IMG/VR virus record: IMGVR_UViG_3300045988_173800
Coordinates: 1 to 33,955 of that record
DNA: 33,955 nucleotides
Strand: one strand, 5' to 3'
DNA from: a virus
Every line of letters starts with the position of its first letter. Within the stretch, counting starts at the first letter, position 1. The translations under genes were made by a program, and so were the position numbers. Under the pieces are notes generated by a model. That model ran no database searches and was not told the origin of the DNA. It saw nothing but the letters and a program-made list of their open reading frames with translations. This document shows, one piece after another, positions 1,996 through 31,049 of this stretch.

Positions 1996-2012
1996 GTGCC
2001 CGAATCGGGCAC
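1996..2012. repeat. 17-bp palindrome GTGCCCGAATCGGGCAC, copy 1 (intergenic, 5' of ltp-like gene)
   Basis: Exact 8+1+8 palindrome, followed on the plus strand by AATTTTTTATATTTT. It lies 15 nt upstream of the ltp-like start codon. Confidence 0.95.
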
Positions 2013-2234
2013 AATTTTTTATATTTTCCCGCAGGTTAACGGGAATTTAACGGTTTCTCTGCTTTTTTCGACAGAATCTTGTCAAAAAAGGTGCTATGGT
2101 AAAAGTACACGCAGGTGCTCCGGAGGTGTCAGCTCGCCTGCGCAGGCCCCGTCGTCAGTTGCAGGGGCGGCGGGGCCGCTTTACAATGGAATATCTGGCC
2201 GGTCTAAAATACGAGTAAAGAGAGGTACATAGAC

Positions 2235-2402
2235 ATGTCAGATCAGCACAGCGCGCCGCAGGACTTGACCGAGTTACACCAACGCCTCATCGAGAAATAC
2301 CGGCGGCTTACGCCGGAAAACCGTGGGCGTCTCATGGCCTATCTTGAGACGATAGCAGCAGGTCCAGATATTCCTCCAGTTTTTCCCGATTCCGCGCGCT
2401 GA
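2235..2402 (+). CDS. Possible 55-aa small ORF convergent with, and overlapping, the repressor 3' end
   Basis: Hand translation: MSDQHSAPQDLTELHQRLIEKYRRLTPENRGRLMAYLETIAAGPDIPPVFPDSAR. AGAGAGG lies 9 nt upstream. Below the 60-aa cut-off of the ORF track. Confidence 0.3.
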   Translation: MSDQHSAPQDLTELHQRLIEKYRRLTPENRGRLMAYLETIAAGPDIPPVFPDSAR

Positions 2403-2658
2403 GCGCGTCATACCCGGCCAGCAGCCTGTCCTCCTCCGAGGGCGGGCTGCTTTTCTGCGCCTCGCCGAGCAGGTCGGAGGTGGTGACGCCGAGATACTGC
2501 GCGAGCAGCTGCACCTTTGCGACGGACGGAACAATCCCCTGCGCGACTTGGCTCATCAAGCTCTTGCCTGCGCCACTTTCTCGGCAGGCAACCGTAGGGG
2601 CAACGCCTTTTATCGCACAGTATTTTTTTACATTTTGCACAAAGACGTTTGCGTCCAT
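2332..2658 (-). CDS. XRE-family HTH repressor (cI-like)
   Basis: ORF 2332..2697. HTH region KKYCAIKGVAPTVACRESGAGKSLMSQVAQG. Start trimmed to ATG 2658 (MDANVF) behind AGGAG. Divergent from the early operon. Confidence 0.85.
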   Translation of the reverse strand: MDANVFVQNVKKYCAIKGVAPTVACRESGAGKSLMSQVAQGIVPSVAKVQLLAQYLGVTTSDLLGEAQKSSPPSEEDRLLAGYDALSARNREKLEEYLDLLLSSQDRP

Positions 2659-2671
2659 TCGGGCAACTCCT

Positions 2672-2746
2672 AATCCAATATTTGAGATTTTGCACAAAGT
2701 TTCAAAAATGGGATATTACGGTATTGACAATCCAAAATATTGGATT
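2672..2746. promoter_or_regulatory. Putative operator half-sites AATCCAA(T/A)AT in the divergent control region
   Basis: AATCCAATATT at 2672..2682. Imperfect palindrome AATCCAAAATATTGGATT at 2729..2746 fills the spacer of the rightward promoter. A weak leftward promoter candidate is TTGAAA (2705..2700), 17 nt, AATATT (2682..2677). Confidence 0.45.
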
Positions 2747-2752
2747 TAAGAT
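2724..2752 (+). promoter_or_regulatory. Rightward early promoter (sigma-70 type)
   Basis: TTGACA (2724..2729), 17-nt spacer, TAAGAT (2747..2752), upstream of the first plus-strand gene. Confidence 0.65.
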
Positions 2753-2803
2753 AGGCATACAAGGTAAACGCAAGGTTTACACGAAACGAAAGGAGAGAAA
2801 AAC

Positions 2804-3052
2804 ATGAACGAGTTTGAGATTAGCATTAAGTCCGCGCCCCACGGCTCGGTCGTCACCGTGCAGGGGAGCACGCCGACCATCGTTGTCGAGTTTGGCATCC
2901 TTGCAAACTCCATCAGCGAGAGGTGCGGCATCCCGCGCGAGCTGCTGATGATGGCGGTCATGAAGTGTGCGGAAATGGAGAGAGAGCTCTCATCCGGCAG
3001 CGTCTGTATCGACAAGGGCGCGATCGACCGCGCGCGTGGCGGCGAAAAGTAA
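2804..3052 (+). CDS. Hypothetical early protein (82 aa)
   Basis: ORF with GAAAGGAGAG RBS. It is the first gene after the early promoter. No recognisable motif. Confidence 0.6.
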   Translation: MNEFEISIKSAPHGSVVTVQGSTPTIVVEFGILANSISERCGIPRELLMMAVMKCAEMERELSSGSVCIDKGAIDRARGGEK

Positions 3053-3114
3053 ATCCACAATTTACTGTATATCACAAATTTCATGCAAAATCAAGAGAAA
3101 GGACGTGACAAGAA

Positions 3115-3393: not shown

Positions 3394-3403
3394 GGAGGGC
3401 GTT

Positions 3404-4319: not shown

Positions 4320-5073
4320 GCCGTTTACCGTCCTGTATAAGTCCGCGATCCGAGACACGCGCCTGAGCTTTGAAATGCTCGGATTTTTGACCTATATGCT
4401 GGACAAGCCTCCCGATTGGGAGTTCACCATCTCCGGCATGGCAAAGGAGCGCGGCGTTGGCAAGGACACGGTGCGCCGCCTTGTGGGACGGCTTGAGGAG
4501 GTCGGTTATCTGATGCGCGAGCAATCGCATGACGGCAGCGGGCGCTTTTCCGCGAACACCTACGTTTTGCAGGAAAAGCCACCGTTGTCGGAAAACACCG
4601 ACAACGGTGAAAGCCGTCGTCGGGAAACACCGTCAACGGAGTTTCCGACCCAAAGTAAGAACGTAGAGACTAAAGATTATATTATACCCCCCTATAGTCC
4701 CCCCAAGGGGGACGGCGCGGAGCCGAGAAAACGGCGCAGCAAAACGACGCCGACATGGAAGCCGGAGCGCTTTGAGGGCTTCTGGGCCTACTATCCCCGC
4801 GGGGAGAACCGCATGGGCGCGGTGCGCGCCTGGGACAAGCTCAAGCCGGACGACGCGCTGATCGACACCATCGGCCGAGCGCTGCAGGTACTCAAGGCCT
4901 CGCCCGCGTGGCGGGACGGCGTCGGCATCCCCTACGCCTCGACCTTCCTCAACGGCCGGCGCTGGGAGGACGCCAAGGCCAAGCGTCCGGCGCAGAGCGC
5001 CAAGGCGCAGCCGGTGCGCCGCATCGAGCAGCCGCCGGATAGTCAGGACGGAGGGTGGACATGGGCCGAGTAG
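4285..5073 (+). CDS. Putative replication initiator / replisome organiser (winged-helix N-terminus)
   Basis: N-terminal LSFEMLGFLTYMLDKPPDWEFTISGMAKERGVGKDTVRRLVGRLEEVGYL (wHTH-like). Internal iterons plus an AT-rich tract. Lies immediately upstream of DnaB. Confidence 0.65.
   Translation: MSEGVIKSGHREPFTVLYKSAIRDTRLSFEMLGFLTYMLDKPPDWEFTISGMAKERGVGKDTVRRLVGRLEEVGYLMREQSHDGSGRFSANTYVLQEKPPLSENTDNGESRRRETPSTEFPTQSKNVETKDYIIPPYSPPKGDGAEPRKRRSKTTPTWKPERFEGFWAYYPRGENRMGAVRAWDKLKPDDALIDTIGRALQVLKASPAWRDGVGIPYASTFLNGRRWEDAKAKRPAQSAKAQPVRRIEQPPDSQDGGWTWAE
4580..4690. other. Putative origin of replication inside the organiser gene
   Basis: Perfect 12-bp inverted repeat CACCGTTGTCGG (4580..4591) / CCGACAACGGTG (4598..4609). 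Direct repeats GAAAACACCGACAACGG (4591..4607) and GAAACACCGTCAACGG (4624..4639). These are followed by the AT-rich stretch TAAGAACGTAGAGACTAAAGATTATATTATA. Confidence 0.5.
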
Positions 5074-6413
5074 ACGCGCAGCCAAGCGCCGGTTTGGAAG
5101 CCGAGCGCGCTGTGCTCGGCGCGATGCTGATCGACGAGAGCATCGTCAGTCAGGTGCTCGCCGAGGTGGACGAGCGCGACTTCACCAGCACGTCCAACCG
5201 GCTGATCTTCCAGGCGGCGCGCGAGGTGTTCCGCGAGGGCGGGCACGCCGACGCCATCACGATCAACGCGAAGCTCGGCTATGCCTCCGGCTCGCCGCAG
5301 CAGCAACAGCTCATCGACCTGATGGAGGTCACGCCCACAAGCGCGAGCTGGCGCGAATATGCGCAGCTTATGCGCGAGCAGGCGGCGCTGGGCCGCATCC
5401 GCGCCCTCTCGGCGCAGATCAACGGCGCGGCTACGCTTGACGACGTCCGTCCGCTGCTCTCGGAGCTGCAAGCGCAGATGACCTCGCGGCGCGGCGTGAA
5501 GGTCGTGCCGATGCTGGAGCTTTTGCAGGATTTCTCCGCCCGCCACGCGAGCGGTGCAGCCGCGGACTATGTGGGCTTCGGGCTGGACGTGCTTGACCAC
5601 AACAGTTTCATCCGGCGCGGCGACGTGGTGGTGCTGGGCGGCTACCCGAGCGACGGAAAGACGGCCCTTGCCCTGATGATGGCCTATCACATGGCCAAGA
5701 CGCTCAAGGTCGGCTTTTTCAGCCTCGAAACGTCCGCCGGCAAGATCGGCGACCGCATCGTGACGCAGGGCATGAAGATCGACTTCGACTCGATCAAGCG
5801 CAGCCGCCTGACCGACCGCGACTGGGGCACCTTCGCGGTCTGTTCGGAGGATGCAGTCAAACGCCAGCTTGACGTGATCCAGGCGAGCGGCATGACCGCC
5901 GGCGACATCATGGCCGAGGCCATCACCTACGGCTACGAGGTGATCTTTGTGGACTACGTCCAGCTGGTCGTCCCCGAAGGCAACCCGCGCGACCTGCGCA
6001 GCGAGCAGATGGCGACCGTTTCCCGCGCGCTGCACACCTTCGCCCAGAGCCGCGGCGTGCTGGTGGTGGAGCTGGCGCAGCTTAGCCGACCCGAGCGCGG
6101 GGCATGGCGCGCGCCGGATATGCACGACCTCAAGGAGACGGGCCAATTCGAGCAGGACGCGGACCTCATCGTCATGGTCTACCGGCCCGACCCCAAGCAG
6201 AACTACTCGCAGGAGAAATGCCGCGTCATCCAGATCGCCAAGAGCAAGGAGGGCCGGCGCGGCAAGGGCGTGTTTGCTTTTGACGGCAAGCATCAGACCT
6301 TCGCGCTCTACACTCGCGATGACGAGAAGGGCCGGAAGGAGAAAACGGACGGCGAAGCGCCCGGTCAGATGGCGCTTGAGGAAGTGCCAGAGGACAAGAA
6401 CGCGCCGTTCTGA
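5061..6413 (+). CDS. dnaB: Replicative DNA helicase DnaB
   Basis: N-terminal AERAVLGAMLIDESIV, Walker A GGYPSDGKTALAL, Walker B VIFVDYVQL, and ELAQLSRPER. ATG 5061 behind GGAGGG. Confidence 0.92.
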   Translation: MGRVDAQPSAGLEAERAVLGAMLIDESIVSQVLAEVDERDFTSTSNRLIFQAAREVFREGGHADAITINAKLGYASGSPQQQQLIDLMEVTPTSASWREYAQLMREQAALGRIRALSAQINGAATLDDVRPLLSELQAQMTSRRGVKVVPMLELLQDFSARHASGAAADYVGFGLDVLDHNSFIRRGDVVVLGGYPSDGKTALALMMAYHMAKTLKVGFFSLETSAGKIGDRIVTQGMKIDFDSIKRSRLTDRDWGTFAVCSEDAVKRQLDVIQASGMTAGDIMAEAITYGYEVIFVDYVQLVVPEGNPRDLRSEQMATVSRALHTFAQSRGVLVVELAQLSRPERGAWRAPDMHDLKETGQFEQDADLIVMVYRPDPKQNYSQEKCRVIQIAKSKEGRRGKGVFAFDGKHQTFALYTRDDEKGRKEKTDGEAPGQMALEEVPEDKNAPF

Positions 6414-6438: not shown

Positions 6439-6624
6439 ATGCCAAGAATCGGAGATCTCCACGCCATTTTGGCGGACATCGGCGCGGCCATCGGCCCCGG
6501 ACATCGGGAGCTCCCGCGGCTGCTGCCCGGGCGCATCGTGTACATCGACCGCGCGCACCGCTGGTATCTCGTCGAGGCCGACCTCGGCGACGGAGTCAAG
6601 GTCCGCGAGGGCTTCAAATTTTGA
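6439..6624 (+). CDS. Hypothetical protein (61 aa)
   Basis: ATG 6439 within ORF frame 5947..6624. It fills the DnaB-ParA gap. RBS is weak. Confidence 0.45.
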   Translation: MPRIGDLHAILADIGAAIGPGHRELPRLLPGRIVYIDRAHRWYLVEADLGDGVKVREGFKF

Positions 6625-6644
6625 GAGAGAAACAGGAGAACGAC

Positions 6645-7409
6645 ATGAAAACCATTGCGATCATGAACAACAAGGGCGGCGTCGGCAAGACCGTTACCGC
6701 CATCAACCTCGCCGACATCCTTGTCGCGGACTACAAGCAGCGCGTGGTGCTGGTGGACTGCGACGGGCAGGCGAACCTGACGCGCTTTTTCCTGCCGGGG
6801 GCGGACAAGCTGGAGCTCACCACCACGGCGGACGTGCTGCGGGGCGACTGCGAGCCGCTGTGGAGCGACAACCTCGTGCCGATCCGACCAGGGCTTGACC
6901 TGCTGCCGAGCAGCTCCGACCTCTACGAGCTCGACCTGCAGGCGATCAAGGACGGCGTGAGCGCGCCGGAGCGTCTGCGTCACTTCGCCGAGGCCGCGGC
7001 TGCGGACAGTGAGGTGGACTGGATGATCTTCGACTGCCCGCCGGGCTACACGCTCGCGAGCGTCGCGGCGCTGCTGAGTGTGCGCGAGGTGATGATCCCC
7101 GCGCTTGCCGACAAGTTCTCGCTCGACGGCGTGTTTGCCGTGGCCGCGCAGCTGCGCGGCCTGAGCGCGGCCTGTCCGTCTCTGCGGTCCCGCGTGCTGC
7201 TGACGCAGACGCGCAGCGCGGAGGTCGTGGGCGAGTGTGAGAAGCTGCTGCGGTCGCAGCGCGTGCCGCTGTACCGCACGAAGATCCGCCGCACGGACAA
7301 GGTGCCGGAGAGCACGGTGACGCTCTCGCCGATGCGGGAGTACAGCCCGCACAGCAGCGCGGCGGTCGATTACCGCTGCCTTGCCGGCGAGCTGATGGAG
7401 GAGGTCTAA
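6645..7409 (+). CDS. parA: ParA/Soj-family partition ATPase
   Basis: Deviant Walker A in MKTIAIMNNKGGVGKTVTAINLA, then VVLVDCDGQANL. ATG 6645 behind AGGAG. Confidence 0.9.
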   Translation: MKTIAIMNNKGGVGKTVTAINLADILVADYKQRVVLVDCDGQANLTRFFLPGADKLELTTTADVLRGDCEPLWSDNLVPIRPGLDLLPSSSDLYELDLQAIKDGVSAPERLRHFAEAAAADSEVDWMIFDCPPGYTLASVAALLSVREVMIPALADKFSLDGVFAVAAQLRGLSAACPSLRSRVLLTQTRSAEVVGECEKLLRSQRVPLYRTKIRRTDKVPESTVTLSPMREYSPHSSAAVDYRCLAGELMEEV

Positions 7410-7411
7410 CA

Positions 7412-8863
7412 ATGGCGGGCAAAAAGTTTGACATCACAAAATTCGCGGCGACGTTGCCCGAGGCCGTGCCCGAATCGGGCACGGCGATGGAGCTCGCGCT
7501 CGGCGACATCCTCGACAATCCGCGCAACTTCTACCCGCGCCCCGACAACAAGGCGCTCGGCGCGCTGATGGAGTCCATCCAGGCCAACGGCCTGCTGGAG
7601 CCGCCGACCATCGTGCCGGCGGAGGACGGCAAGTATCGCCTGATCTCCGGACACAGCCGCATGGCGGCGCTGCGGCTGCTCGCGGCGAACCGGGACGAGG
7701 CCGTCGCGAAGCAGTTCTCCACCGTGCTCTGCCGAGTGCTGCCCGCGATGACGGAGGAGCAGGAGCTGTGCGCGGTGATCGAGGCGAACCGTCAGCGCGT
7801 GAAGTCCAACGCGCTGCTTGCGGAGGAGGCCGAGAAGCTCAAAGAGACTTATATTCGGCGCAAGAAGGCCGGCGAGGAGTTCCCGGTCGGGCTGCGCGAC
7901 TGGGTGGCAAAGGAGATGCAGATCAACGCGACAAAGGTCGGCAACCTGCAGGTCATTAAAAAGGGCCTCAAGGTGCCGGGCATCATCAGGAGGTGGGAGG
8001 CGGGCGAGCTGCCCGAGGCCGCGGCGCTTGAGATCGCCCGCATGGACGACGAGACGCAGTACAGGCTGCTGGATTGGGTCATTGACCACTGTCGCACATG
8101 GTCGATCAACAACGTGCGCGAGTTTTCGACCTGCTGGACCTGCTACAAGCATAAGTGCCCGGATACCGGCGGCTTTTGCCCGAACGCCGCGCGGATGTAC
8201 GCTGACCGTTATCGCTACGGCGAGTGGCGCTGTGCCGGCTGCTGCCGCGAATGTCTTAACCGCGACACCTGCTCTACCGCCTGCCGCTTCGTGGTCGCCG
8301 AGCGGCCGCCGAAGGAGCCGGAGCCTGCCGTGCCCCGAAATCCGGCAGCCGACGATCCTCGGCTCAAGAACATGACGCCGAAATTCTGCGAGCGCGTCAA
8401 GGCACTGCGCGAAGCGACCGGCTTGACGCGCAGGGAGTTTGCCGAGAGCATCGGCGAGTACCCCGGCACCTACAGCGCGTGGGAAAACAACAGCCTTGCC
8501 GGTGCGGGCTCGTTGCCCAAGCTGGCGCTGACGCTCGGCACGACGATGGACTATCTCTGCGGGCTGACGGACGATCCTTTACCGCCGCGAGACGAGTGGA
8601 GGGTTGGCGTGGGTTTCGCCGCGCCGGAATGGCTGCCGCTCGACGCGGAGCATTGGCCGGAGGAAGGCTCGCTCGTGGCGCTCAGCTACGAGACCGGCCT
8701 TGGCGGCAGCAGCTACCTTGTGGCCCGCTGCGCCGGCGGCGCGGATGATGAGTACCCGTTTATCTCGACGGACGCGGGGACCACGGTCGACGACATCGTC
8801 GAGTGCCGCTGCGACCGCTGGATGCCGCTTGCCGAGTGCGGCCGCGGCAAGGAGGGCGCATGA
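7412..8863 (+). CDS. parB: Multi-domain ParB-like protein: ParB/Srx N-domain, Cys-rich region, XRE HTH, DUF551-like C-terminus
   Basis: ParB box in LLEPPTIVPAEDGKYRLISGHSRMAALRLL. Cys cluster CWTCYKHKCPDTGGFCP...CAGCCRECLNRDTCSTAC. HTH in VKALREATGLTRREFAESIGEYPGTYSAWEN. C-terminal EWLPLD...DRWMPLAE. Lies immediately after parA. Confidence 0.85.
   Translation: MAGKKFDITKFAATLPEAVPESGTAMELALGDILDNPRNFYPRPDNKALGALMESIQANGLLEPPTIVPAEDGKYRLISGHSRMAALRLLAANRDEAVAKQFSTVLCRVLPAMTEEQELCAVIEANRQRVKSNALLAEEAEKLKETYIRRKKAGEEFPVGLRDWVAKEMQINATKVGNLQVIKKGLKVPGIIRRWEAGELPEAAALEIARMDDETQYRLLDWVIDHCRTWSINNVREFSTCWTCYKHKCPDTGGFCPNAARMYADRYRYGEWRCAGCCRECLNRDTCSTACRFVVAERPPKEPEPAVPRNPAADDPRLKNMTPKFCERVKALREATGLTRREFAESIGEYPGTYSAWENNSLAGAGSLPKLALTLGTTMDYLCGLTDDPLPPRDEWRVGVGFAAPEWLPLDAEHWPEEGSLVALSYETGLGGSSYLVARCAGGADDEYPFISTDAGTTVDDIVECRCDRWMPLAECGRGKEGA
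7466..7482. repeat. 17-bp palindrome, copy 2 (inside parB, read as VPESGT)
   Basis: Exact GTGCCCGAATCGGGCAC. It is in frame with ParB codons 19-24. Confidence 0.95.
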
Positions 8864-9216: not shown

Positions 9217-9218
9217 AT

Positions 9219-10786: not shown

Positions 10787-11033
10787 ATTTAGACGCTTGA
10801 CCTACAAGACGCCGGACGGGGCGTGGGGCATCAAGGGCGTGAGCCTGATCTCCTGCCCGGCGCGGCTCTACGGCGCGGCCGCGAAGCTGTGCGACATGGA
10901 GAGCCTGTGCGAGGACGTGTACCGCGCCAAGGACGCCGAGCTGACGCTCGACGCGCTGCAGGAGCTGGTGGACAAGGGCCTCGGCGGACGCTTCCTCGAT
11001 CTGCGCCGGGCGCTGAAAGGAGTGACACTATGA
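10779..11033 (+). CDS. Hypothetical protein (84 aa)
   Basis: ATG 10779 is 8 nt after GGAGG. It overlaps the previous stop. Confidence 0.55.
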   Translation: MPEFRRLTYKTPDGAWGIKGVSLISCPARLYGAAAKLCDMESLCEDVYRAKDAELTLDALQELVDKGLGGRFLDLRRALKGVTL

Positions 11034-11635
11034 CGGGGAGCAAGGTGCTGGTCGTGAAGCTGCCGGAGCTGCACGCCGATGTCAAGCAGCTCGAGGCGTT
11101 CCGCGCCTATGTGTGCGACGCGCTCGGCGCGGGCACGCTGGTGCTGCCGCTCGGCACGACCTATGCGGTCGAGGAATTTCCCCCGCTCGGCGCGGTGGAG
11201 GTGGTCGCGGGGAGTGCCGTGCCTGTCGTGATCGGCGGGTCGAGGCCGACGCCTGCGGGCGGAGGCGGCGGGCTGGTCGTTGGCGGGCGCGTCGTCCGCT
11301 CGGTGCCCGATTCGGGCACCGCACCGGAGCCGGAGCGGGCGGAGGTTCCCTCGGAAACGCCGAAGCCTCAGCCGGATGCGCCAGCCAAGCCGACGCCGAT
11401 TTTGAGAAGCCCTCCGGTGCGGAGCGCCGCGCCGCGCTCTCATGCTCTGCCGATGAGCGAGGGAGAGATCGTGGCGTCCTACCGGCAGGCGGCAAAGCCG
11501 GCGGCGCAGATCACGGTGCTTGCGGATCTCAACGCCTGCTCTAAGGAGCGCATTGAGGAGATCCTGCGCGAGGCCGGCGAGCCGCTGCCGAAGAAGCGCG
11601 GACGCCAGAAGCAACCGGAGGGCGCACATGAGTGA
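11030..11635 (+). CDS. Hypothetical protein with Pro/Gly-rich linker (201 aa)
   Basis: ATGA overlap and AAGGAG RBS. The C-terminal ITVLADLNACSKERIEEILREAG is HTH-like. Confidence 0.55.
   Translation: MTGSKVLVVKLPELHADVKQLEAFRAYVCDALGAGTLVLPLGTTYAVEEFPPLGAVEVVAGSAVPVVIGGSRPTPAGGGGGLVVGGRVVRSVPDSGTAPEPERAEVPSETPKPQPDAPAKPTPILRSPPVRSAAPRSHALPMSEGEIVASYRQAAKPAAQITVLADLNACSKERIEEILREAGEPLPKKRGRQKQPEGAHE
11303..11319. repeat. 17-bp palindrome, copy 3 (opposite orientation, central T; read as VPDSGT)
   Basis: GTGCCCGATTCGGGCAC is the exact reverse complement of the canonical copy. It is in frame in ORF 11030..11635. Confidence 0.95.
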
Positions 11636-25514: not shown

Positions 25515-27763
25515 TGAGTCTGAACACCGTAAAATACAAAGGCGAGCTCCTCGCCGAGGACGAGCGCATCAGCACCGACACCCCCGGCGTGCTGGGCGAG
25601 TATAAGGAGCTGCGCGCGGACGCGCTCGAGGCGGACACGCTCGACATCACCGTTTTGTCCGAATCGGGCACGATCCGGAATTTCAAGAAAAACGACAAGG
25701 TCGAGTATTTCCGCTCCGGCAGCCGCGTCGGCGTCTACTACCTGCAGAGCGTCACGCGTGTGGGGCCGAAGCTCTACACGCTCTCTGCGCTTTCCGCGGT
25801 CGGGCTGCTGATCGTCCGGCCGCACCGCGGCGGCATCTACACCGGGCAGACGGTTGCCGAGGTCGTCGCGGAGATCTGCGGCGACATCCCTGTGCTTATC
25901 GAGACCGCCTACCGCGGCATCAAGCTCTACGGCTGGCTGCCCATCGCCTCGGCGCGCGACAGCCTCGTGCAGGTGCTCTTTGCCATCGGCGCGTGGCTGC
26001 ACACGGACGAGAACGGCACGCTGCGCGTGCAGAAACTCTGGGACGGCACGGCGAGCATCATCGGCCCCGGGAGCGTCCATGCCGCAAACATCCAGGTCAA
26101 GTACCTCGACCCCGTCAGCGCGGTCGCCGTCACCGAACACCAGTACATTGCCGGCACGGAGGACGTCACGCTCTTCGAGGGCACGGCCCAGCAGGGCGAC
26201 GTGATCGAGTTTGACGAGCCGGCGCACACGCTCACGGCCGAGGGCTTCACCGTCCTTGAGAGCGGCGCGAACTACGCCGTCCTCTCTGCGGGCACCGGCA
26301 AGCTCACCGGCAAAAGCTACGTCCACAACCGGCGCGTCGTCACGCGCACCGTGACCGAGGGCGCGGCGGAGAACGTCGAGGAGATCACCGACGCGACGCT
26401 CGTCTCGCTCGTCAACGCCTCAGCGGTCGCGCAGCGCATGGCAGCCTATTACGCCTGCCGCGAGCAGCTCACCGTGGACGTCAACCCCGCGGGCGAGCAC
26501 GCCGGGCACGTCGTCTCGCTCTGGAACGAGTGGGACAAACAGCAGACGCTCGCCTGCATCGCCTCGCGCGAGACGAAGATCTCCGGGCTGCTCAAGTCCC
26601 GCACCTCGGCGCTCGTCGGCTTTCTGCCCCCGCAGCCCGAAACCATGGAATACTACGACGAGCGCGTGCTGCTTACCGGCTCCGGCGAGTGGACGGTCCC
26701 GGAGGGCGTCACGAGCTACACCCGCGTCCTTATCGGCGGCGGTCACGGCGGCAGCAGCGGCCATCAGGGTGAAAGCCCCGCCGTGCGCGCATCGAAGACA
26801 TGGACCGAGGAATATGACTCTCTCAGACGCTGCGTCGGCCTTGACAACGGCGTCTCGCTGGAGGGCGGCAAGGGCGGCATGCCCGGCGTGCCGGGCGAAG
26901 GCGGCAAGGTGCTGGTCGAGACCGTCACCGACGCCGTACCGGGCACAAAGGTCTCCTATGCCTGCGGAAGGGGCGGCTACGGCGGCGTCTTTACGCAGGG
27001 CAACGACGCGGGCGCGCCCGGCACCGCGACCACAATGGGCGGCGCAACGAGCGACACAGGCTCGTCGAGCGAGGCGGGCTACACCGACGCGACCACGGGC
27101 GAGGTCTTTGCCGCCAAAGGCAAAAGCGGCATCGCGGGCAGCCCGGGCAACGGCTACACATGGGACGGCGGAAAGTATACCTACCAGCCAAGTCCCTCGA
27201 TCACCGTCGACGGTGTGACCTACTCCGCGGGCAAAGACAAAGAGGAGGTCGAGGGAGAAGACGGGCGGGGCGACTACAAAATCGCGCCCTACGGTTATGT
27301 CGGCTACAGCTGGCGCGGCGGCTACGGCGGCGGAGCGGCGGCAGGTTCCAACGGAAACGACGGCCTTGCAAACGGCAGCGGCGATGCTTATATCGGCTCC
27401 TCAAGCGCATTCGCGACGGTCACGGCGGCGCGCGGCGGCGCGGGCGCAGACGCAACGCCGCCCGCCAAGGAGAGCCGTTACGGCTTCGGCGGCACAAGCG
27501 GCCACGGCGGCGGCGGCGCAGGCTCCAACGGCGTGGCGGACGCACACCAGACATCGTCTGAAAATATATCAGTATCGCAGGCGTCTCTGACCGCGAGGGA
27601 CACCGAACCCGCCTCGGGCGGTCGCGGATCTGACGGCGGCGATGCAGGCGACGGCTGCATCATCATCTACTACCGCAAGCTCAAGCCGCTCAGCGCGGGC
27701 TGGCTGCGCGACAACACCCAAAAGCCGCTGCTCGACCGCCTCGGGCGCAGGATCATCGTTTAA
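25514..27763 (+). CDS. Large tail tip/baseplate protein with glycine-rich C-terminal region
   Basis: ATG 25514 within ORF frame 25031..27763. The C-terminal third is full of GGxGG, GxPG and GSxG runs and ends in GDGCIIIYYRKL. Confidence 0.7.
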   Translation: MSLNTVKYKGELLAEDERISTDTPGVLGEYKELRADALEADTLDITVLSESGTIRNFKKNDKVEYFRSGSRVGVYYLQSVTRVGPKLYTLSALSAVGLLIVRPHRGGIYTGQTVAEVVAEICGDIPVLIETAYRGIKLYGWLPIASARDSLVQVLFAIGAWLHTDENGTLRVQKLWDGTASIIGPGSVHAANIQVKYLDPVSAVAVTEHQYIAGTEDVTLFEGTAQQGDVIEFDEPAHTLTAEGFTVLESGANYAVLSAGTGKLTGKSYVHNRRVVTRTVTEGAAENVEEITDATLVSLVNASAVAQRMAAYYACREQLTVDVNPAGEHAGHVVSLWNEWDKQQTLACIASRETKISGLLKSRTSALVGFLPPQPETMEYYDERVLLTGSGEWTVPEGVTSYTRVLIGGGHGGSSGHQGESPAVRASKTWTEEYDSLRRCVGLDNGVSLEGGKGGMPGVPGEGGKVLVETVTDAVPGTKVSYACGRGGYGGVFTQGNDAGAPGTATTMGGATSDTGSSSEAGYTDATTGEVFAAKGKSGIAGSPGNGYTWDGGKYTYQPSPSITVDGVTYSAGKDKEEVEGEDGRGDYKIAPYGYVGYSWRGGYGGGAAAGSNGNDGLANGSGDAYIGSSSAFATVTAARGGAGADATPPAKESRYGFGGTSGHGGGGAGSNGVADAHQTSSENISVSQASLTARDTEPASGGRGSDGGDAGDGCIIIYYRKLKPLSAGWLRDNTQKPLLDRLGRRIIV
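25655..25671. repeat. 17-bp palindrome, copy 6 (two mismatches; read as LSESGT)
   Basis: TTGTCCGAATCGGGCAC, in frame in the tail protein. Confidence 0.75.
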
Positions 27764-29094: not shown

Positions 29095-29124
29095 AATATA
29101 GCACACCTAAAGCCGCTTTGTCAA
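29095..29124 (-). promoter_or_regulatory. Near-consensus minus-strand promoter convergent with the toxin promoter
   Basis: Minus strand reads TTGACA (29124..29119), 18 nt, TGcTATATT (29103..29095). It shares TTGACAAAGCG and GTGCTATA with the plus-strand promoter. Confidence 0.6.
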
Positions 29125-29146
29125 GCAAGACAAGGCGGCTTTTTTC
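29111..29146 (+). terminator. Rho-independent terminator of the toxin transcript
   Basis: AGCCGCTTTGTC-AAGCAA-GACAAGGCGGCT (one mismatch) followed by TTTTTT. Confidence 0.75.
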
Positions 29147-29173
29147 GCGCCGCCGGAAAGAGAGACAACGCCT

Positions 29174-29479
29174 ATGGAAAGTTTATCGAAATTAGCGGCG
29201 CTGTGCTCGGAGCTGACGGTGATCCTCGCGGCGGTCGCCATGCTCGTCAAGCCGCTGCGCAATAAAATGCTCGGGCTGGACAAGCTGACCGACGCGCTCA
29301 AATGCCAGCTCCGGCACGACATGCTGCACACCTACTACCGCCACAGAGAGGACCGCACCATCCGGCAGTACGAGCTGGAGGATTTTCTCTATCTCTACCG
29401 CGGGTACAAGGCCCTCGGCGGCAACAGCTTTATCGACCGCATCAAGTCGGAGATCGACGAATGGGAGGTGATCTCATGA
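29174..29479 (+). CDS. N-terminally membrane-anchored protein (101 aa), lysis-cassette associated
   Basis: Contains the LAALCSELTVILAAVAMLV helix. It is the first gene of the lysis block. Function not recognised. Confidence 0.55.
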   Translation: MESLSKLAALCSELTVILAAVAMLVKPLRNKMLGLDKLTDALKCQLRHDMLHTYYRHREDRTIRQYELEDFLYLYRGYKALGGNSFIDRIKSEIDEWEVIS

Positions 29480-30183
29480 GAGACATCAAAGGCTCGACCT
29501 CGGAGGAGGTGCGCATGATCCGCGCCATCCAACGCTCCGTCGGTGCGCTGGACAACGGCTGGATCGGCAACCAGACCATGAGCGACATCGCCGCCAAGCT
29601 CGGCGCGGACTGCTTTCCGCTCAACGTCGAGCTGTACGGTCAGCCCTGCATCATCGCGCGGGACATTGAGCCTGTCAACATGAGCGGGCCGCTGCCGCGC
29701 AACGCCATCTCGGGGAGCTTTTCTTGGCAGGGGCAGCCCTGCTCCATCCTCGTGCGCGGCGGCAAGGTCGTGCGCGGCATGAGCTGTCACTATCCTCGCC
29801 CCGAGAGCGTGCTCTACAAGACCTTAGATGGCGCGGTGCGCATCGCCAGCGTCTCCTCGGCAGCGGCGCTGGGTGACGTCGTGTGGGCGGTCGGCGGGCT
29901 TGGTCTGCTCGACCTCTATAACCCTGCCGCGGAGGGCTTCACAGGGGCGTACAGCGACGTGCTGCGCAAGACTAACCACACCGTCCTCGGCTACAAGGGC
30001 GGGCTGCTCTACGGCGTCTACTGCCGCAGCATGACCGCGCAGCAGGTCAACGCCTTTTGTCGGGACAAGCTCAAGCTGGAATACGCCGTCATGCTCGACG
30101 GCGGGCACGTCGCCGCCATCCACGGCGCGTGTAACAAAATCAACACAAACCAGCGGCAATATTACGCCGTGCGGTTTCTGTAA
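29476..30183 (+). CDS. Putative cell-wall hydrolase, phosphodiester glycosidase (NAGPA/DUF2233)-like, with PG-binding-like N-terminus
   Basis: ATGA coupling and GGGAGGTG RBS. N-terminal IRAIQRSVGALDNGWIGNQTMSDIA. C-terminal AVGGLGLL ... YAVMLDGGHVAA resembles the NAGPA DGGGS region. Confidence 0.45.
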   Translation: MRDIKGSTSEEVRMIRAIQRSVGALDNGWIGNQTMSDIAAKLGADCFPLNVELYGQPCIIARDIEPVNMSGPLPRNAISGSFSWQGQPCSILVRGGKVVRGMSCHYPRPESVLYKTLDGAVRIASVSSAAALGDVVWAVGGLGLLDLYNPAAEGFTGAYSDVLRKTNHTVLGYKGGLLYGVYCRSMTAQQVNAFCRDKLKLEYAVMLDGGHVAAIHGACNKINTNQRQYYAVRFL

Positions 30184-30194
30184 AGGAGGCAAAA

Positions 30195-30383
30195 ATGCAA
30201 AATCGACTTGCAAACCTTCTCACGGTCAAGAGCATCGTGACCATCGTGCTCACGGCGGTTTTCTCGGTGCTCGCCCTGCGCGGCAGCATCAGCGGGACGG
30301 AGTTTCTGACGATCTTCACGACCGTCATCGCCTTCTACTTCGGCACGCAGACCGAGAAGAAGAAAAATGAAGAGGTTTCTTGA
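30195..30383 (+). CDS. Holin (two TM helices, charged C-terminus)
   Basis: IVTIVLTAVFSVLAL and FLTIFTTVIAFYFG, then TQTEKKKNEEVS. AAGGAGG RBS. Lies directly upstream of the endolysin. Confidence 0.75.
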   Translation: MQNRLANLLTVKSIVTIVLTAVFSVLALRGSISGTEFLTIFTTVIAFYFGTQTEKKKNEEVS

Positions 30384-31029
30384 GACCCTGACCGCGTGGG
30401 AGGGCGCGGTGCGCGGAGACGCGGTGCACAAGCGCATCGTGGACGCCTACAACAGCTTCCTGCCCCATCCGCGCGGCTACAGGCTCACCTATTCGGACGA
30501 CTACTGCGCGGCGATGGTGTCCGCGGCGGCGATCCTCTGCGACCTGACGGATAAGATCCCGGTCGAGTGCTCCTGCGGCGAGCAGATGAAATGGTATCAA
30601 GCGCGCGGCCAATGGATTGAGGACGACGCGCATGTCCCCAAAATCGGCGAGCAGGTTTTCTACTGCTGGAACGACCGCAAGGACTACGCCCTCACGGACT
30701 GCACGGGCGCGCCCAACCACACGGGCATCGTGACCGCCTGTGACGATCAGAAAATCACGGTGTTCGAGGGCAACAAGGGCAAGGAGCACAAGTGCGCGTA
30801 CCGCATCCTCCCCGTCAACGGGCGGTATATCCGGGGCTTCGGCATACCGAAATACCCCGTGGACAAGACCGTGCTCACGCGCGGCGACAAGGGCGCGGCG
30901 GTCGGGAAGCTGCAAGAGCTTCTCAATGCCTGCGGCTATGCGCTGGACGTGGACGGTTCATTCGGCCCCGCGACGCAGAAGGCGTGGGGAGAGTACCTCG
31001 CCGCGTACATCCTCAAGGCCCTAAAATGA
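30367..31029 (+). CDS. Endolysin: CHAP-type domain plus C-terminal PG_binding_1 domain
   Basis: DDYCAAMVS (Cys), APNHTGIV (His), and C-terminal LTRGDKGAAVGKLQELLNACGYALDVDGSFGPATQKAW. Confidence 0.8.
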   Translation: MKRFLETLTAWEGAVRGDAVHKRIVDAYNSFLPHPRGYRLTYSDDYCAAMVSAAAILCDLTDKIPVECSCGEQMKWYQARGQWIEDDAHVPKIGEQVFYCWNDRKDYALTDCTGAPNHTGIVTACDDQKITVFEGNKGKEHKCAYRILPVNGRYIRGFGIPKYPVDKTVLTRGDKGAAVGKLQELLNACGYALDVDGSFGPATQKAWGEYLAAYILKALK

Positions 31030-31032
31030 TTT

Positions 31033-31049
31033 GTGCCCGAATCGGGCAC
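31033..31049. repeat. 17-bp palindrome, copy 7 (intergenic, 3 nt after the endolysin stop)
   Basis: Exact GTGCCCGAATCGGGCAC. Confidence 0.95.

What the first reader, a model, noticed from the sequence alone, without database searches (positions are those of the whole stretch)
1996..31049. Seven copies of a 17-bp perfect palindrome spaced about one-seventh of the genome apart, five embedded in the same reading frame in unrelated genes
Copies:
- GTGCCCGAATCGGGCAC (8+1+8 palindrome) occurs exactly at 1996, 7466, 21081 and 31033.
- Its reverse orientation (central T) occurs at 11303.
- A one-mismatch copy (GTGTCC...) is at 15745 and a two-mismatch copy (TTGTCC...) at 25655.

A specific 17-mer is not expected even once by chance in 34 kb.

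Spacing: start-to-start intervals are 5470, 3837, 4442, 5336, 4574 and 5378 bp. The interval across the att junction is 4863 bp when the 33,900-bp unit is circularised. The sites are therefore close to evenly distributed around the circle, far more regularly than random placement would give.

Context:
- Two copies are intergenic: 15 nt upstream of the ltp-like start, and 3 nt after the endolysin stop.
- Five lie inside unrelated ORFs: the ParB N-terminus, ORF 11030, TerL, the connector C-terminal tail and the tail protein.
- All five are read in the same frame as (V/L)(P/S)(E/D)SGT. This looks as if the DNA site is the selected object and is tolerated as a small loop peptide.

Interpretation (inference): the sites may be dispersed loading or operator sites for the phage ParB, or for another phage HTH protein. 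Precedents are the scattered SopB centromere palindromes of prophage-plasmid N15 and the 12 OB operators of KorB/IncC on RK2. Such sites could serve partition of an episomal form, genome-wide silencing or compaction. Separately, the central GA(A/T)TC fits GANTC, the target class of CcrM-type adenine methyltransferases, and the phage encodes a ParB-domain methyltransferase.
Basis: partly seen in the sequence, partly recalled or inferred. Interest (0 to 1): 0.88.

Follow-up and report, generated by a model that had tools for sequence, protein, structure and literature searches.

The report
Phage-wide ParB-linked palindrome sites
A gut-bacterial prophage carries seven evenly spaced copies of a 17-bp palindrome that always travels with the phage's own ParA/ParB DNA-segregation genes, so they are most likely ParB docking sites spread over the whole genome, and they also mark the exact points where related phages have swapped modules.

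Summary
GTGCCCGAWTCGGGCAC occurs 5 times exactly and twice with 1-2 mismatches. Shuffles give 0.21 matches at up to 3 mismatches. Spacing on the 33.9-kb circle has CV 0.115 (P about 7e-6).

The window is a temperate Oscillospiraceae phage with a DnaB-ParA-ParB early operon. In about 120 loci fetched only by ParB homology (27-100% identity), a palindrome of this family nearly always lies 21-60 nt into parB, and further copies lie several kb away. Each ParB clade has its own symmetric variant at all its sites, for example GTGTCCAASTTGGACAC in the Flavonifractor phage Cormatin clade.

Sites sit where they are tolerated: gene junctions, protein termini and surface loops. Inside genes they are almost always read as V-P-E/D-S-G-T. 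In TerL the site is a 4-8 residue insertion.

Best reading: a parS-like array for the phage ParB, resembling N15 centromeres or KorB operators. Binding is inferred, not shown.

The methylation idea is not supported. No methyltransferase domain was found, and the GANTC core is lost in variant clades.

Unexpectedly, homology breakpoints between related phages fall exactly on palindrome edges: 50 observed against 1 expected.

Verdict: new variant of a known kind; moderately high interest.

The parts
1996..2012 (.). Palindrome copy 1 (exact, central A). Intergenic, 14 nt upstream of the Ltp start codon on the minus strand, and followed on the plus strand by a T-run.
   Evidence: Seven different left-hand gene alleles are joined to the conserved right-hand side at or within about 9 nt of this motif's left edge in relatives.
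7466..7482 (.). Palindrome copy 2 (exact). Codons 19-24 (VPESGT) of parB. This is the family-wide conserved position.
   Evidence: a copy lies 21-60 nt into parB in nearly every homologue (27-100% identity). Homology with 15-16 loci ends at its last base.
11303..11319 (.). Palindrome copy 3 (exact, central T). Lies in a Gly/Pro-rich linker of ORF 11030-11635 and is read VPDSGT.
   Evidence: A mosaic junction falls at its right edge in 9 loci.
15745..15761 (.). Palindrome copy 4 (1 mismatch, GTGTCC...). TerL codons 70-75 (VSESGT), in a variable loop.
   Evidence: The copy is exact in 92-96% identical TerLs. Homologues lacking the site (Cormatin, L022, L227, L042) have a 4-8 residue gap at this place.
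21081..21097 (.). Palindrome copy 5 (exact). C-terminal tail of the head-tail adaptor (20805-21125), after the conserved NQLKLTEP.
   Evidence: Cormatin carries its own variant GTGTCCAACTTGGACAC (read VSKLDT) at the same place. Cormatin-Castelnaud homology ends exactly at this palindrome.
25655..25671 (.). Palindrome copy 6 (2 mismatches, TTGTCC...). In the tail protein, read LSESGT. This is the weakest member.
   Evidence: it is conserved only among near-identical relatives. It does not fold as a hairpin.
31033..31049 (.). Palindrome copy 7 (exact). Lies 3 nt after the lysin stop and heads the conserved leader of a small sigma-70-region-4-like HTH gene.
   Evidence: Homology with 10 loci starts at it, with 4 different left-hand alleles.
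6621..7409 (+). ParA-type Walker ATPase, partner of ParB.
   Evidence: Pfam AAA_31, CbiA and ParA; PHROG 164 ParA-like. NCBIfam ParA_partition matches below its cutoff. It is adjacent to parB in 77 of 81 related loci.
7412..8863 (+). ParB-family protein. Domains in order: N-terminal K-rich peptide; ParB/Srx NTP-binding-fold domain (GxxR = G80-H-S-R83); HTH DNA-binding domain; Cys-rich segment; extra Xre-type HTH; DUF551-like C-terminus.
   Evidence: Pfam ParB_N (weak) and HTH_3. A profile of the family against PDB hits Noc, ParB and Spo0J at E = 1e-10 to 1e-11. In the AF2 model, residues 23-225 have pLDDT 70-88. Foldseek target-normalised TM-scores: ParB 6t1f 0.70, KorB 8qa9 0.70, Noc 7nfu 0.66.
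5055..6413 (+). DnaB-type helicase, upstream member of the conserved dnaB-parA-parB early gene block.
   Evidence: Pfam DnaB_C and DnaB. Present in 76 of 81 ParB-selected loci.
31120..31365 (+). 81-aa sigma-70 region-4-like HTH protein. Alternative candidate binder of copy 7.
   Evidence: Pfam Sigma70_r4_2 at E = 7e-5, below the family cutoff. Homologues occur in 36 fetched loci, and the palindrome is directly upstream in about 14.
1..55 (.). Left copy of the 55-bp terminal direct repeat. It reads as the 3' part of a tRNA-Lys(UUU)-like gene on the minus strand. Either att core or circular-assembly overlap.
   Evidence: 100% identical to 33901-33955; direct reading of the sequence. ARAGORN finds no whole tRNA.
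33901..33955 (.). Right copy of the 55-bp terminal direct repeat.
103..1308 (-). Tyrosine integrase, which shows the phage is of the integrative temperate type.
   Evidence: Pfam Phage_integrase.

Best explanation
The palindromes are the cognate cis-sites (parS-like) of the phage's own ParB-family protein, which works with the adjacent ParA. They form an array over the whole 34-kb genome instead of a single centromere.

Shown here:
- The protein has the ParB/Noc/KorB two-domain fold.
- The palindrome family co-occurs with this ParB family.
- One copy always sits in the 5' end of parB.
- Each ParB clade has its own symmetric sequence variant at all its sites.
- Sites occupy tolerated positions and one reading frame.

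Inferred mechanism:
- A ParB dimer reads the two half-sites GTGYCCRA with its HTH domains.
- It then closes as an NTP-dependent clamp and slides or spreads a few kb. Sites every 4-5.5 kb would therefore load ParB over the entire genome.
- ParA, stimulated by the Lys-rich N-terminal peptide of ParB, then positions or segregates the ParB-coated phage DNA while it is extrachromosomal, that is after infection or induction and before integration or packaging.
- A KorB- or BisD-like effect on transcription is an equally open downstream use. Copies 1 and 7 lie in 5' leader regions, and ParB carries extra Xre-HTH and Cys-rich domains.
- Because the sites are identical islands shared by otherwise diverged phages, and perhaps because bound ParB stalls forks or pairs sites, they also act as preferred crossover points.
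For: 1. The protein is ParB-like.
- A family profile hits Noc, ParB and Spo0J N-domains at E about 1e-11.
- Foldseek on the confident part of the model aligns about 220 columns, covering the N-terminal and DNA-binding domains, to ParB, Noc, KorB and Spo0J with target-normalised TM-scores of 0.66-0.70.
- G80 and R83 of GxxR and an E-A-N-x-x-R box are conserved.
- ParA is adjacent in 77 of 81 loci.

2. Association with ParB, tested independently of the motif.
- 80 loci were fetched by ParB homology only. Almost all have a family palindrome 33-60 nt into parB. Further copies lie near -5.5, +4 and +8.5 kb.
- Density is 1.5-3.3 sites per 10 kb in five ParB clades. In unrelated seeded genome loci it is about 0.05 per 10 kb, not counting the seeds.
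- 40 more loci fetched with Cormatin ParB show the same architecture.

3. Concerted variants.
- GTGCCCGAWTCGGGCAC is the main form.
- GTGTCCGAWTCGGACAC occurs in L276 and L285.
- GTGCCCAAWTTGGGCAC occurs in the clades whose HTH reads SKSKL..IRKNL or IRSKL.
- GTGTCCAASTTGGACAC occurs in the Cormatin clade, whose HTH reads SAPKLARLKVIRE(R/H)L.
- Position 7 is G in all clades with an HTH ending in xGL, and A in clades ending in NL, RL or HL.
- The same physical position, the adaptor C-tail, carries the clade's own variant.

4. The DNA is the selected object, not the peptide or an RNA.
- Flanks are dyad-symmetric: Y at -1 and R at +17; C at -2 and G at +18.
- Of 16 sites deep inside genes, 15 are in one frame.
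- The TerL site is a 4-8 residue insertion in a variable loop.
- Clade E uses a conserved asymmetric 17-mer that would break the inner stem pairs of a hairpin.

5. Multiplicity tracks ParB in whole genomes.
- Window: 7 sites. Cormatin: 4.
- ParB-less L240: 1. L241: 1. Castelnaud: 2. Chenonceau: 0.

6. Precedents.
- N15 has four separate IR centromere sites, GTGCGACCNNGGTCGCAC (PMC7205306).
- KorB-CTP slides from distal OB sites (PMC11790492).
- BisD loads at bisS sites and slides over about 50 kb of ICEclc (PMC12409273).
Against: - No binding data exist. The link is co-occurrence and co-variation, and it is partly confounded by shared ancestry of the phages.
- Two quite different recognition-helix types (NATKVGNLQ and SKSKLARLK) go with the same palindrome.
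- ParB-less phages (L240, L241, Castelnaud) keep exact or near-exact copies. A ParB encoded in cis is therefore not required for a copy to persist.
- Box II reads SGH(S/R)R, not the canonical GERRxR. This resembles the GxHR motif of ParB-like nucleases and sulfiredoxins, so CTP-clamp behaviour is unproven.
- These phages have integrases, and parAB sits in the early lytic operon with no promoter of its own predicted. A classical plasmid-partition role in lysogens is therefore doubtful.
- Even spacing is strong in this lineage but weaker in clades D and E.
Confidence: 0.6

Rival explanations
1. The palindromes are primarily recombination joints. They would be short conserved linkers, passive homology islands or targets of a site-specific nuclease or recombinase, that let related phages exchange roughly 5-kb functional modules. 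The copy in parB would simply be the joint between the ParA-interacting peptide and the body of ParB.
For: - BLAST homology breakpoints between the window and relatives fall on motif edges: 50 ends within 2 nt of an edge against 1.0 expected.
- There are 19 distinct far-side alleles at four sites.
- The homology shared by Cormatin and Castelnaud ends at the last base of the palindrome in both genomes.
- ParB residues 1-24 are identical, and the rest is 30-70% identical, in L051, L037 and L234.
- The seven sites separate these modules: lysogeny, replication, parB-plus-accessory, packaging, head, tail and lysis/moron.
Against: - A passive linker gives no individual-level selection that would keep 17 of 17 bases, nor does it explain clade-specific concerted variants.
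- No candidate recombinase or nuclease is universally linked. The second ParB_N protein is found in only 16 of 81 loci and the HNH in 30.
- Three of the seven sites show no junction in this sample.
- Many other HSP-end hotspots lie at ordinary gene boundaries.
- Being a conserved protein-binding island is enough to make a site a crossover point, so this reading is compatible with, and may be secondary to, the ParB reading.
Confidence: 0.13
2. The sites are operators of another phage regulator rather than of the ParB DNA-binding domain. Candidates are the 81-aa sigma-70-region-4-like HTH protein encoded just downstream of copy 7, and the Xre-type HTH inside ParB.
For: - The palindrome heads the conserved leader of this small HTH gene in about 14 loci.
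- Two phage records found only by homology to that protein, L240 and L241, each carry a copy although they lack ParB.
- Several copies lie between an AT-rich -10-like stretch and an RBS.
Against: - Cormatin and its clade have 4-6 sites but no homologue of the small HTH protein at E < 1e-3. Castelnaud also lacks it.
- The Xre-HTH region of ParB is missing or replaced in L227, L037, L234, L010 and L073, which keep the exact palindrome.
- This reading gives no reason for a universal copy inside parB.
Confidence: 0.1
3. The element acts as a single-strand hairpin, in RNA or in ssDNA. Possible roles are a 5'-leader stabiliser, a processing or attenuation signal, or a priming signal at gene junctions.
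For: - It folds as a 7-bp stem with a triloop (-12.8 kcal/mol), extended to 9-10 bp by the flanks at several sites; z is -3.5 to -4.5.
- Variant clades change both arms together, which also preserves pairing.
- Many copies lie just before an RBS.
- Copy 1 is followed by a T-run and is called terminator-like.
Against: - Positions 8 and 10 (A...T) and position 7/11 keep palindromic symmetry although they would lie in or next to the loop.
- Clade E uses a conserved asymmetric 17-mer (GTGTCCAAGTCTGACAC) with two broken inner pairs.
- Copy 6 does not fold.
- Six of the seven copies lack a U-tract.
- Sites occur in either orientation and in a divergent promoter region.
- The flanks are dyad-symmetric.
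- No Rfam family matches at any site.
Confidence: 0.07
4. The sites are targets of DNA methylation (GANTC, CcrM-type) or of a host-encoded factor, or they form a host-wide REP-like repeat.
For: - The core of the main variant, GAWTC, fits GANTC.
- Two prophages of one strain, Cormatin and Castelnaud, share the GTGTCC-type variant. This could reflect a host factor.
Against: - Neither ParB_N protein has a methyltransferase domain.
- Variant clades have cores AACTT and AATTT, which lack GANTC.
- In the genome-wide scan, multi-copy hits in Oscillospiraceae lie in prophage contexts. The remaining hits are singletons in unrelated GC-rich taxa, at about the rate I estimate from composition.
- A third prophage of the same strain, Chenonceau, has none.
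Confidence: 0.04

Closest known systems
Dispersed SopB centromere sites (IR1-IR4) of the prophage-plasmid N15
   Same: - A temperate phage encodes a ParA/ParB-type pair.
- Its cognate palindromes are single sites scattered through the phage genome, not one tandem array.
- The N15 IR, GTGCGACCNNGGTCGCAC (PMC7205306, Table 4), even shares the outer GTGC...GCAC.
   Different: - N15 is a linear plasmid prophage with no integration, so partition is obviously needed. These phages carry integrases, and Cormatin is integrated.
- N15 has four sites. Here there are seven at near-even 4-5.5 kb spacing, five of them embedded in-frame in genes.
- The proteins belong to a different ParB lineage: SopB (type Ia) against a Spo0J/Noc-like N-domain with extra Cys-rich and Xre-HTH domains.
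KorB with its OB operators on plasmid RK2
   Same: - A ParB-fold protein is structurally similar to this ParB (Foldseek 8qa9, TM-score 0.70).
- Its odd-length palindromic operators are scattered around the replicon. From them the CTP clamp slides to act at a distance (PMC11790492).
- It pairs with the ParA homologue IncC (own knowledge).
   Different: - KorB needs the clamp-locking partner KorA and acts at promoters. No KorA-like partner was identified here, and most sites are inside genes.
- The host is a plasmid of Gram-negative bacteria rather than a phage of Clostridia.
- Box II here is GH(S/R)R.
BisD with its bisS sites on ICEclc
   Same: - A ParB-like NTP clamp on an integrated mobile element carries an extra effector domain.
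- It loads at parS-like sites and slides over tens of kb to control element genes on activation (PMC12409273).
- That matches an integrative element whose ParB is made on induction and has extra domains.
   Different: - BisD uses two bisS sites and then spreads about 50 kb. Here there are many loading sites.
- The BisC partner and the activator domain are not found here.
- Here ParB has an adjacent ParA.
Chromosomal ParABS (Spo0J/Soj-parS) of Bacillota
   Same: - A small Soj-like ParA pairs with a Spo0J-like ParB.
- Several parS copies lie inside coding sequences, including one inside the parB (spo0J) gene itself (own knowledge, Lin and Grossman 1998).
   Different: - The site sequence differs (17 bp, GTGCCCGAWTCGGGCAC, against 16 bp, TGTTNCACGTGAAACA).
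- Chromosomal parS sites cluster near oriC, whereas these cover the whole replicon.
- These sites keep a fixed reading frame.
Boundary or linker sequences of the modular theory of phage evolution
   Same: Short conserved sequences at module borders where related phages recombine. The palindromes here coincide with exact mosaic breakpoints.
   Different: - Classical boundary sequences are conserved gene ends or intergenic stretches with no known binding protein.
- Here one 17-bp palindrome recurs at every border, changes in concert by clade, and is tied to a ParB gene.

Membership tests
ParABS system (ParA ATPase, ParB, parS) | A deviant Walker-A ParA ATPase is encoded next to ParB. | tested here: met
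   6621-7409 matches Pfam AAA_31, CbiA and ParA and PHROG 164. It is adjacent to parB in 77 of 81 related loci.
ParABS system (ParA ATPase, ParB, parS) | ParB has an N-terminal ParB/Srx (NTP-binding) domain followed by an HTH DNA-binding domain. | tested here: met
   - Pfam ParB_N is weak (E = 4e-4).
- The family profile against PDB hits Noc and ParB at E = 3e-11.
- Foldseek aligns about 220 columns to ParB, Noc, KorB and Spo0J with target-normalised TM-scores of 0.66-0.70, on a model with pLDDT 70-88 over residues 23-225.
ParABS system (ParA ATPase, ParB, parS) | A palindromic cis-site is specifically bound by the ParB. | tested here: inconclusive
   Co-occurrence, a fixed copy inside parB and clade-specific concerted variants all support it. 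Physical binding cannot be tested with these tools.
ParABS system (ParA ATPase, ParB, parS) | Canonical CTP-binding boxes (GERRxR and ENLQR) and CTP-dependent clamping. | tested here: inconclusive
   G80 and R83 (GxxR) and E-A-N-R-Q-R are present, but box II reads SGH(S/R)R. Nucleotide specificity cannot be predicted from sequence.
ParABS system (ParA ATPase, ParB, parS) | The system stabilises or segregates an extrachromosomal replicon. | not testable with these tools
   The phages have integrases and Cormatin is integrated (PMC10197239). No homologue occurs in 72,556 plasmid records.
KorB/OB-type global regulator | Multiple operators are scattered over the replicon. | tested here: met
   There are 7 sites over 34 kb and 1.5-3.3 per 10 kb in relatives.
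KorB/OB-type global regulator | A clamp-locking co-repressor (KorA-like) is present, and operators are placed at or near promoters. | tested here: inconclusive
   No partner was identified. Only copies 1 and 7 lie in leader or promoter-like regions, and five are intragenic.
Host-wide REP/BIME-like repeated palindrome | Comparable density throughout the host chromosome, outside mobile elements. | tested here: not met
   - Multi-copy hits in Oscillospiraceae genomes lie in prophage contexts.
- Other hits are single copies in unrelated GC-rich taxa, at about the chance rate I estimate from composition.
Intrinsic transcription terminator | A GC-rich hairpin immediately followed by a U-tract. | tested here: not met
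   Only copy 1 has a T-run. The other six do not.
GANTC (CcrM-type) methylation target with a phage methyltransferase | An N6-adenine methyltransferase domain is encoded, and the GANTC core is conserved in the site family. | tested here: not met
   No methyltransferase domain was found in 7412-8863 or 13617-14963. Variant palindromes have cores AACTT and AATTT.

The most novel reading that the evidence does not exclude
The ParB-bound palindromes may be more than centromere or loading sites. They may be the physical joints of a modular phage genome.

- An evenly spaced array loads ParB over the whole chromosome.
- The same sites, shared by all phages of a ParB specificity group, would be where co-resident genomes are paired, broken and recombined. 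Whole 4-5 kb functional modules would then be exchanged precisely and in frame.
- ParB specificity would define a 'recombination compatibility group'.
- ParB-less phages such as Castelnaud could plug into it, or compete through centromere-type incompatibility, by carrying a few sites.
Probability: 0.2. Interest if true: 0.85.

Novelty: new variant of a known kind. Interest (0 to 1): 0.62.

Why it matters
- The ParB family is large. More than 1200 homologues were found in gut metagenomes. It belongs to temperate phages of Oscillospiraceae, a major and poorly studied group of human and animal gut bacteria.
- If the palindromes are ParB sites, these phages coat their whole genome from a regular array of loading sites. 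That differs from the single centromere of plasmids and from the origin-proximal cluster of chromosomes. It raises the question of what an integrative phage uses ParABS for: positioning of replicating genomes, a pre-integration carrier state, transcription control or protection.
- Embedding a DNA site in one reading frame, as a six-residue loop or tail in unrelated proteins, is a clear case of a cis-element constraining protein sequences.
- The exact coincidence with mosaic breakpoints offers a testable molecular handle on how phage modules are exchanged.
- Flavonifractor plautii YL31 is a culturable member of the OMM12 consortium. It carries the inducible ParB-positive Cormatin and the ParB-less, site-bearing Castelnaud, so it is a ready experimental system.

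Tried and rejected
- tRNA search: no complete tRNA. The terminal repeat is only a tRNA 3' part.
- Rfam scan of the window: nothing at any palindrome. The single hit is an unrelated DUF3800-VIII RNA at 13425-13492.
- Near-identity search of GenBank phages: only short unannotated human-faecal fragments, so no annotation to borrow.
- Plasmid collection with ParB: no homologue, so there is no evidence that these are phage-plasmids.
- Longest-ORF frame calling: unreliable at 63% GC. I replaced it with a GC3-periodicity test.
I repeated it with database homologues. The C-terminal half is low-confidence and was not interpreted.
- Counting sites per contig from the motif scan to infer 'single-site' phages: rejected. 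The scan was truncated; contig _080016 has six sites but only one stretch was returned.
- Methyltransferase idea: rejected.
- Terminator idea: rejected for six of seven sites.
- The 3-mismatch hit at 14451: treated as chance.
- Full-text search for the motif strings: no paper holds them.

Full report
OBSERVATION

A pattern search finds GTGCCCGAWTCGGGCAC exactly at 1996, 7466, 11303 (central T), 21081 and 31033. A one-mismatch copy is at 15745 and a two-mismatch copy at 25655. A three-mismatch hit at 14451 I treat as chance. One hundred dinucleotide-preserving shuffles gave on average 0.21 matches at up to three mismatches.

The window ends in a perfect 55-bp direct repeat, 1-55 and 33901-33955. 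On the minus strand it reads as the 3' part of a tRNA-Lys-like gene, and it lies next to a tyrosine integrase. The unit is therefore 33,900 bp.

On that circle the seven gaps are 5470, 3837, 4442, 5336, 4574, 5378 and 4863 bp, giving a CV of 0.115. In one million random placements, P(CV as low) = 7e-6 and P(smallest gap as large) = 9e-5. With the five exact copies alone the regularity is only P about 0.04.

All five intragenic copies are read (V/L)(P/S)(E/D)SGT.

GENOME CONTEXT

Base composition is about 63% G+C, and nearly all genes are on the plus strand. Family searches give the following map:
- integrase (103-1308, minus strand)
- an Ltp lipoprotein (minus strand)
- a repressor-like gene and two Xre regulators
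- a replication initiator
- DnaB (5055-6413)
- a ParA-type ATPase (6621-7409)
- a 483-aa ParB-like protein (7412-8863)
- accessory genes
- an HNH endonuclease
- a second ParB_N protein (13617-14963)
- TerS, TerL, portal, protease, capsid, adaptor, tail genes and a lysin (30367-31029)
- a few small 'moron' genes

The second ParB_N protein has no methyltransferase domain in Pfam or NCBIfam. Its PHROG match to a 'DNA methyltransferase' family covers only the ParB-like N-terminal part.

The closest GenBank relatives are unannotated human-faecal phage fragments. The closest named phage is Flavonifractor phage Cormatin, an inducible integrated prophage of F. plautii YL31 (PMC10197239). The host is therefore an Oscillospiraceae bacterium.

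THE PROTEIN

- A profile of 12 family members hits the N-terminal domains of Noc, ParB and Spo0J in the PDB at E = 3e-11 to 1e-7.
- An AlphaFold2 model is confident for residues 23-225 (pLDDT 70-88).
- Foldseek aligns about 220 columns, covering both the NTP-binding domain and the HTH DNA-binding domain. Target-normalised TM-scores are 0.70 for Caulobacter ParB, 0.70 for RK2 KorB and 0.66 for Noc.
- Invariant residues include F6, D7, N39-F40-Y41, S79-G80-H81 and R83. The GxxR nucleotide motif stressed for BisD (PMC12409273) is thus present, but box II reads SGH(S/R)R rather than GERRxR.
- The C-terminal half (a Cys-rich segment, an Xre-type HTH and a DUF551-like end) is mosaic among relatives and is missing in some.

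THE LINK BETWEEN PALINDROME AND ParB

A scan of IMG/VR for the 17-mer returned at least 118 stretches before it was cut. Where a ParB homologue was on the stretch, a copy lay 42-57 nt into parB even at 27-30% protein identity.

I then fetched 80 loci by ParB homology alone, and 40 more with Cormatin ParB as query. In these motif-blind samples almost every locus has a family palindrome 21-60 nt into parB. Many have a second copy about 1.2 kb further on in parB. Others lie at about -5.5 to -6.6 kb, +4 kb and +8.5 to +9.6 kb.

Density is 1.5-3.3 sites per 10 kb in all five clades. In 886 kb of unrelated seeded genome stretches there are 4 non-seed sites. ParA is adjacent in 77 of 81 loci and DnaB in 76.

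CONCERTED VARIANTS

Perfect 8+1+8 palindromes in these loci are almost exclusively of this family, and they differ by clade:
- GTGCCCGAWTCGGGCAC in most
- GTGTCCGAWTCGGACAC in L276 and L285
- GTGCCCAAWTTGGGCAC in two clades
- GTGTCCAASTTGGACAC in Cormatin and about 15 relatives
- a conserved asymmetric GTGTCCAAGTCTGACAC in a further clade

The variants follow the type of ParB helix-turn-helix. Position 7 is G wherever the HTH ends in xGL, and A where it ends in NL, RL or HL.

At one and the same physical place, the C-terminal tail of the head-tail adaptor, the window has GTGCCCGAATCGGGCAC (read VPESGT). Cormatin has GTGTCCAACTTGGACAC (read VSKLDT). This points to a trans-acting factor whose specificity co-evolves with all sites of a genome. 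ParB is the only DNA-binding protein universally linked to them.

This link is co-variation, partly confounded by common descent. Two different recognition helices also share the main palindrome, so it is strong circumstantial evidence, not proof.

THE DNA IS WHAT IS SELECTED

- Flanks are dyad-symmetric (Y/not-A at -1 and R/not-T at +17; C at -2 and G at +18).
- Of 87 dereplicated contexts, most lie within 150 nt of a gene boundary. Many follow the pattern stop codon, palindrome, RBS.
- Of the 16 contexts deep inside genes, 15 use the frame that gives V-P-E/D-S-G-T.
- In TerL the six codons sit in a variable loop, and homologues without the site have a 4-8 residue gap there.
- In the adaptor the site is appended after the conserved NQLKLTEP. 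In ORF 11030 it lies in a Gly/Pro-rich linker.
- In the Castelnaud amidase a site arose by point changes where Cormatin has only a half-site.

The other two frames would encode C-P-N-R-A or A-R-I-G-H, the latter with a CGA codon. That plausibly explains the frame bias (inference).

RIVAL READINGS

Hairpin.
- For: the sequence folds as a 7-bp stem with a triloop (-12.8 kcal/mol), and longer with flanks. Arm changes are compensatory.
- Against: the innermost palindromic positions would be in or next to the loop. The asymmetric clade-E site breaks two inner pairs in a conserved way. Copy 6 does not fold. Six of seven copies lack a U-tract. No Rfam family matches.

Another regulator.
- For: copy 7 heads the conserved leader of an 81-aa sigma-70-region-4-like HTH gene. 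Two ParB-less phage records found through that protein each carry one copy.
- Against: the Cormatin clade and Castelnaud lack that protein.

Host-wide repeat or host factor.
- In the genome scan, multi-copy hits in Oscillospiraceae lie in prophage contexts, and the rest are singletons in unrelated GC-rich taxa.
- A third prophage of strain YL31, Chenonceau, has none.

Methylation.
- No methyltransferase was found, and GANTC is absent from the variant cores.

MULTIPLICITY IN COMPLETE GENOMES

- Window: 7 sites.
- Cormatin: 4.
- ParB-less L240: 1.
- L241: 1.
- Castelnaud: 2.
- Chenonceau: 0.

Arrays therefore go with ParB, but isolated copies persist without a ParB encoded in cis. They may have arrived by module exchange, or they may be served in trans. 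Castelnaud shares its host strain, and its GTGTCC-type half-sites, with Cormatin.

AN UNEXPECTED FEATURE: MOSAIC JOINTS

BLAST homology between the window and all fetched loci breaks off exactly at palindrome edges.
- With megablast, 37 of 456 internal HSP ends lie at the sites, against 9.2 expected.
- With blastn, 50 ends lie within 2 nt of a motif edge, against 1.0 expected.
- These represent 19 distinct far-side alleles, grouped by site and HSP side:
  - 7 different gene cassettes left of copy 1
  - 4 at copy 2 (3 left, 1 right)
  - 3 at copy 3 (1 left, 2 right)
  - 5 at copy 7 (4 left, 1 right)
- At copy 2, parA and ParB residues 1-24 stay 96-100% identical while the rest of ParB is replaced.
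- Independently, the only structural-region homology between Cormatin and Castelnaud (525 bp) ends at the last base of the palindrome in both genomes.

Other breakpoint hotspots exist at ordinary gene boundaries, and three window sites show no junction in this sample. The palindromes are therefore not the only joints, but they are strongly enriched ones. A conserved protein-binding island in diverged DNA would be a natural crossover point. Whether ParB actively promotes exchange is open.

SPACING

The near-even 4-5.5 kb spacing recurs in relatives. Contig _080016 has gaps of 4639, 5342, 4727, 4116 and 6311 bp, and contig _064203 has 5336, 5034 and 5261 bp. The Cormatin clade is similar. These are largely homologous positions, however, and clades D and E are less regular.

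I consider the regularity real for this lineage. Its cause is unknown. It could reflect the reach of sliding ParB, or the size of exchangeable modules.

COMPARISON AND VERDICT

The closest known systems are these:
- the four dispersed SopB IR centromeres of prophage-plasmid N15 (PMC7205306)
- KorB-CTP sliding from scattered OB operators on RK2 (PMC11790492)
- the ParB-like BisD clamp of ICEclc (PMC12409273)
- chromosomal parS sites inside genes, including spo0J (own knowledge)

The system meets the ParA and ParB-fold criteria of ParABS. Site binding, CTP dependence and a segregation role remain untested.

What is new is the combination of these features:
- a large phage-specific ParB lineage in integrative gut phages
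- a 17-bp site family with clade-specific concerted variants
- an array spanning the whole genome
- strict in-frame embedding
- exact coincidence with mosaic breakpoints

No paper in the searchable library contains the motif. I rate it a new variant of a known kind, with interest 0.62 and confidence 0.6 that the sites are ParB targets.

Noticed in passing
window 1996, 7466-7482, 11303-11319, 31033; L239:15329-15345 and L324:16054-16070: Homology breakpoints between related phages fall exactly on palindrome edges: 50 HSP ends against 1 expected, with 19 distinct alleles. Shared homology between Cormatin and Castelnaud ends at the last base of the palindrome in both genomes. The sites behave as mosaic (module-exchange) joints.
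   Followed up: yes
L324 (Flavonifractor phage Castelnaud, ON453903) 2000-2016 and 16054-16070: This ParB-less prophage lives in the same F. plautii YL31 strain as the ParB-positive Cormatin. It carries two palindromes built from Cormatin-type half-sites (GTGTCCAA and GTGTCCGA). Possible explanations are use of ParB in trans, centromere-type incompatibility, or hitch-hiking through module exchange.
   Followed up: partly
window 31050-31119 and 31340-31385: The roughly 70-nt leader between palindrome copy 7 and the ATG of the small sigma-70-region-4-like gene is conserved at nucleotide level among loci whose proteins are only 57-70% identical. It contains a GGGAAGT...ACTTCCC hairpin. A strong hairpin plus T-run terminator follows the gene. 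The leader may be a structured regulatory RNA or a promoter.
   Followed up: partly
window 13425-13492 (+): Rfam DUF3800-VIII RNA motif, 49.9 bits against a gathering score of 40.2. It lies just upstream of the second ParB_N protein gene and is unrelated to the palindromes.
   Followed up: no
window 13617-14963 (+): A second ParB_N-domain protein lies immediately upstream of terS. Its 280-aa C-terminal domain matches only PHROG 21498 (unknown function). It is not a methyltransferase by Pfam or NCBIfam, and it is present only in close relatives (16 of 81 loci).
   Followed up: partly
window 8130-8290 (ParB residues about 241-293) and 8387-8575 (residues 326-388): ParB carries a conserved segment with nine Cys residues (C249, C256, C277, C278, C281 and C291 are nearly invariant across clades). 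This suggests a metal or Fe-S site. It also has an extra Xre-type HTH and a DUF551-like C-terminus. The gene at 9213-9680 is also DUF551.
   Followed up: no
window 1-55 and 33901-33955: The 55-bp terminal repeat equals a tRNA-Lys(UUU)-like 3' part next to the integrase, which is att-like. But 55 nt is also a common assembler k-mer overlap of circular contigs. Related genomes occur as separate 34-37 kb contigs, including one of 33,902 bp, CABSFR010000013 (L234). The window could therefore be a circular assembly rather than an excised attL-attR interval.
   Followed up: no
window 1982-2060, and the homologous left flanks in L021, L243, L259, L264, L265 and L268: The slot left of palindrome copy 1 holds at least seven unrelated minus-strand cargo genes in different relatives (Ltp in the window). 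Each has its own RBS abutting the palindrome, downstream of a conserved AT-rich promoter-like stretch. This looks like a moron cassette site.
   Followed up: partly
PMC7205306 Table 4 compared with window sites: The N15 SopB centromere IRs (GTGCGACCNNGGTCGCAC) share the outer GTGC...GCAC bases with this palindrome family. This may be coincidence.
   Followed up: no
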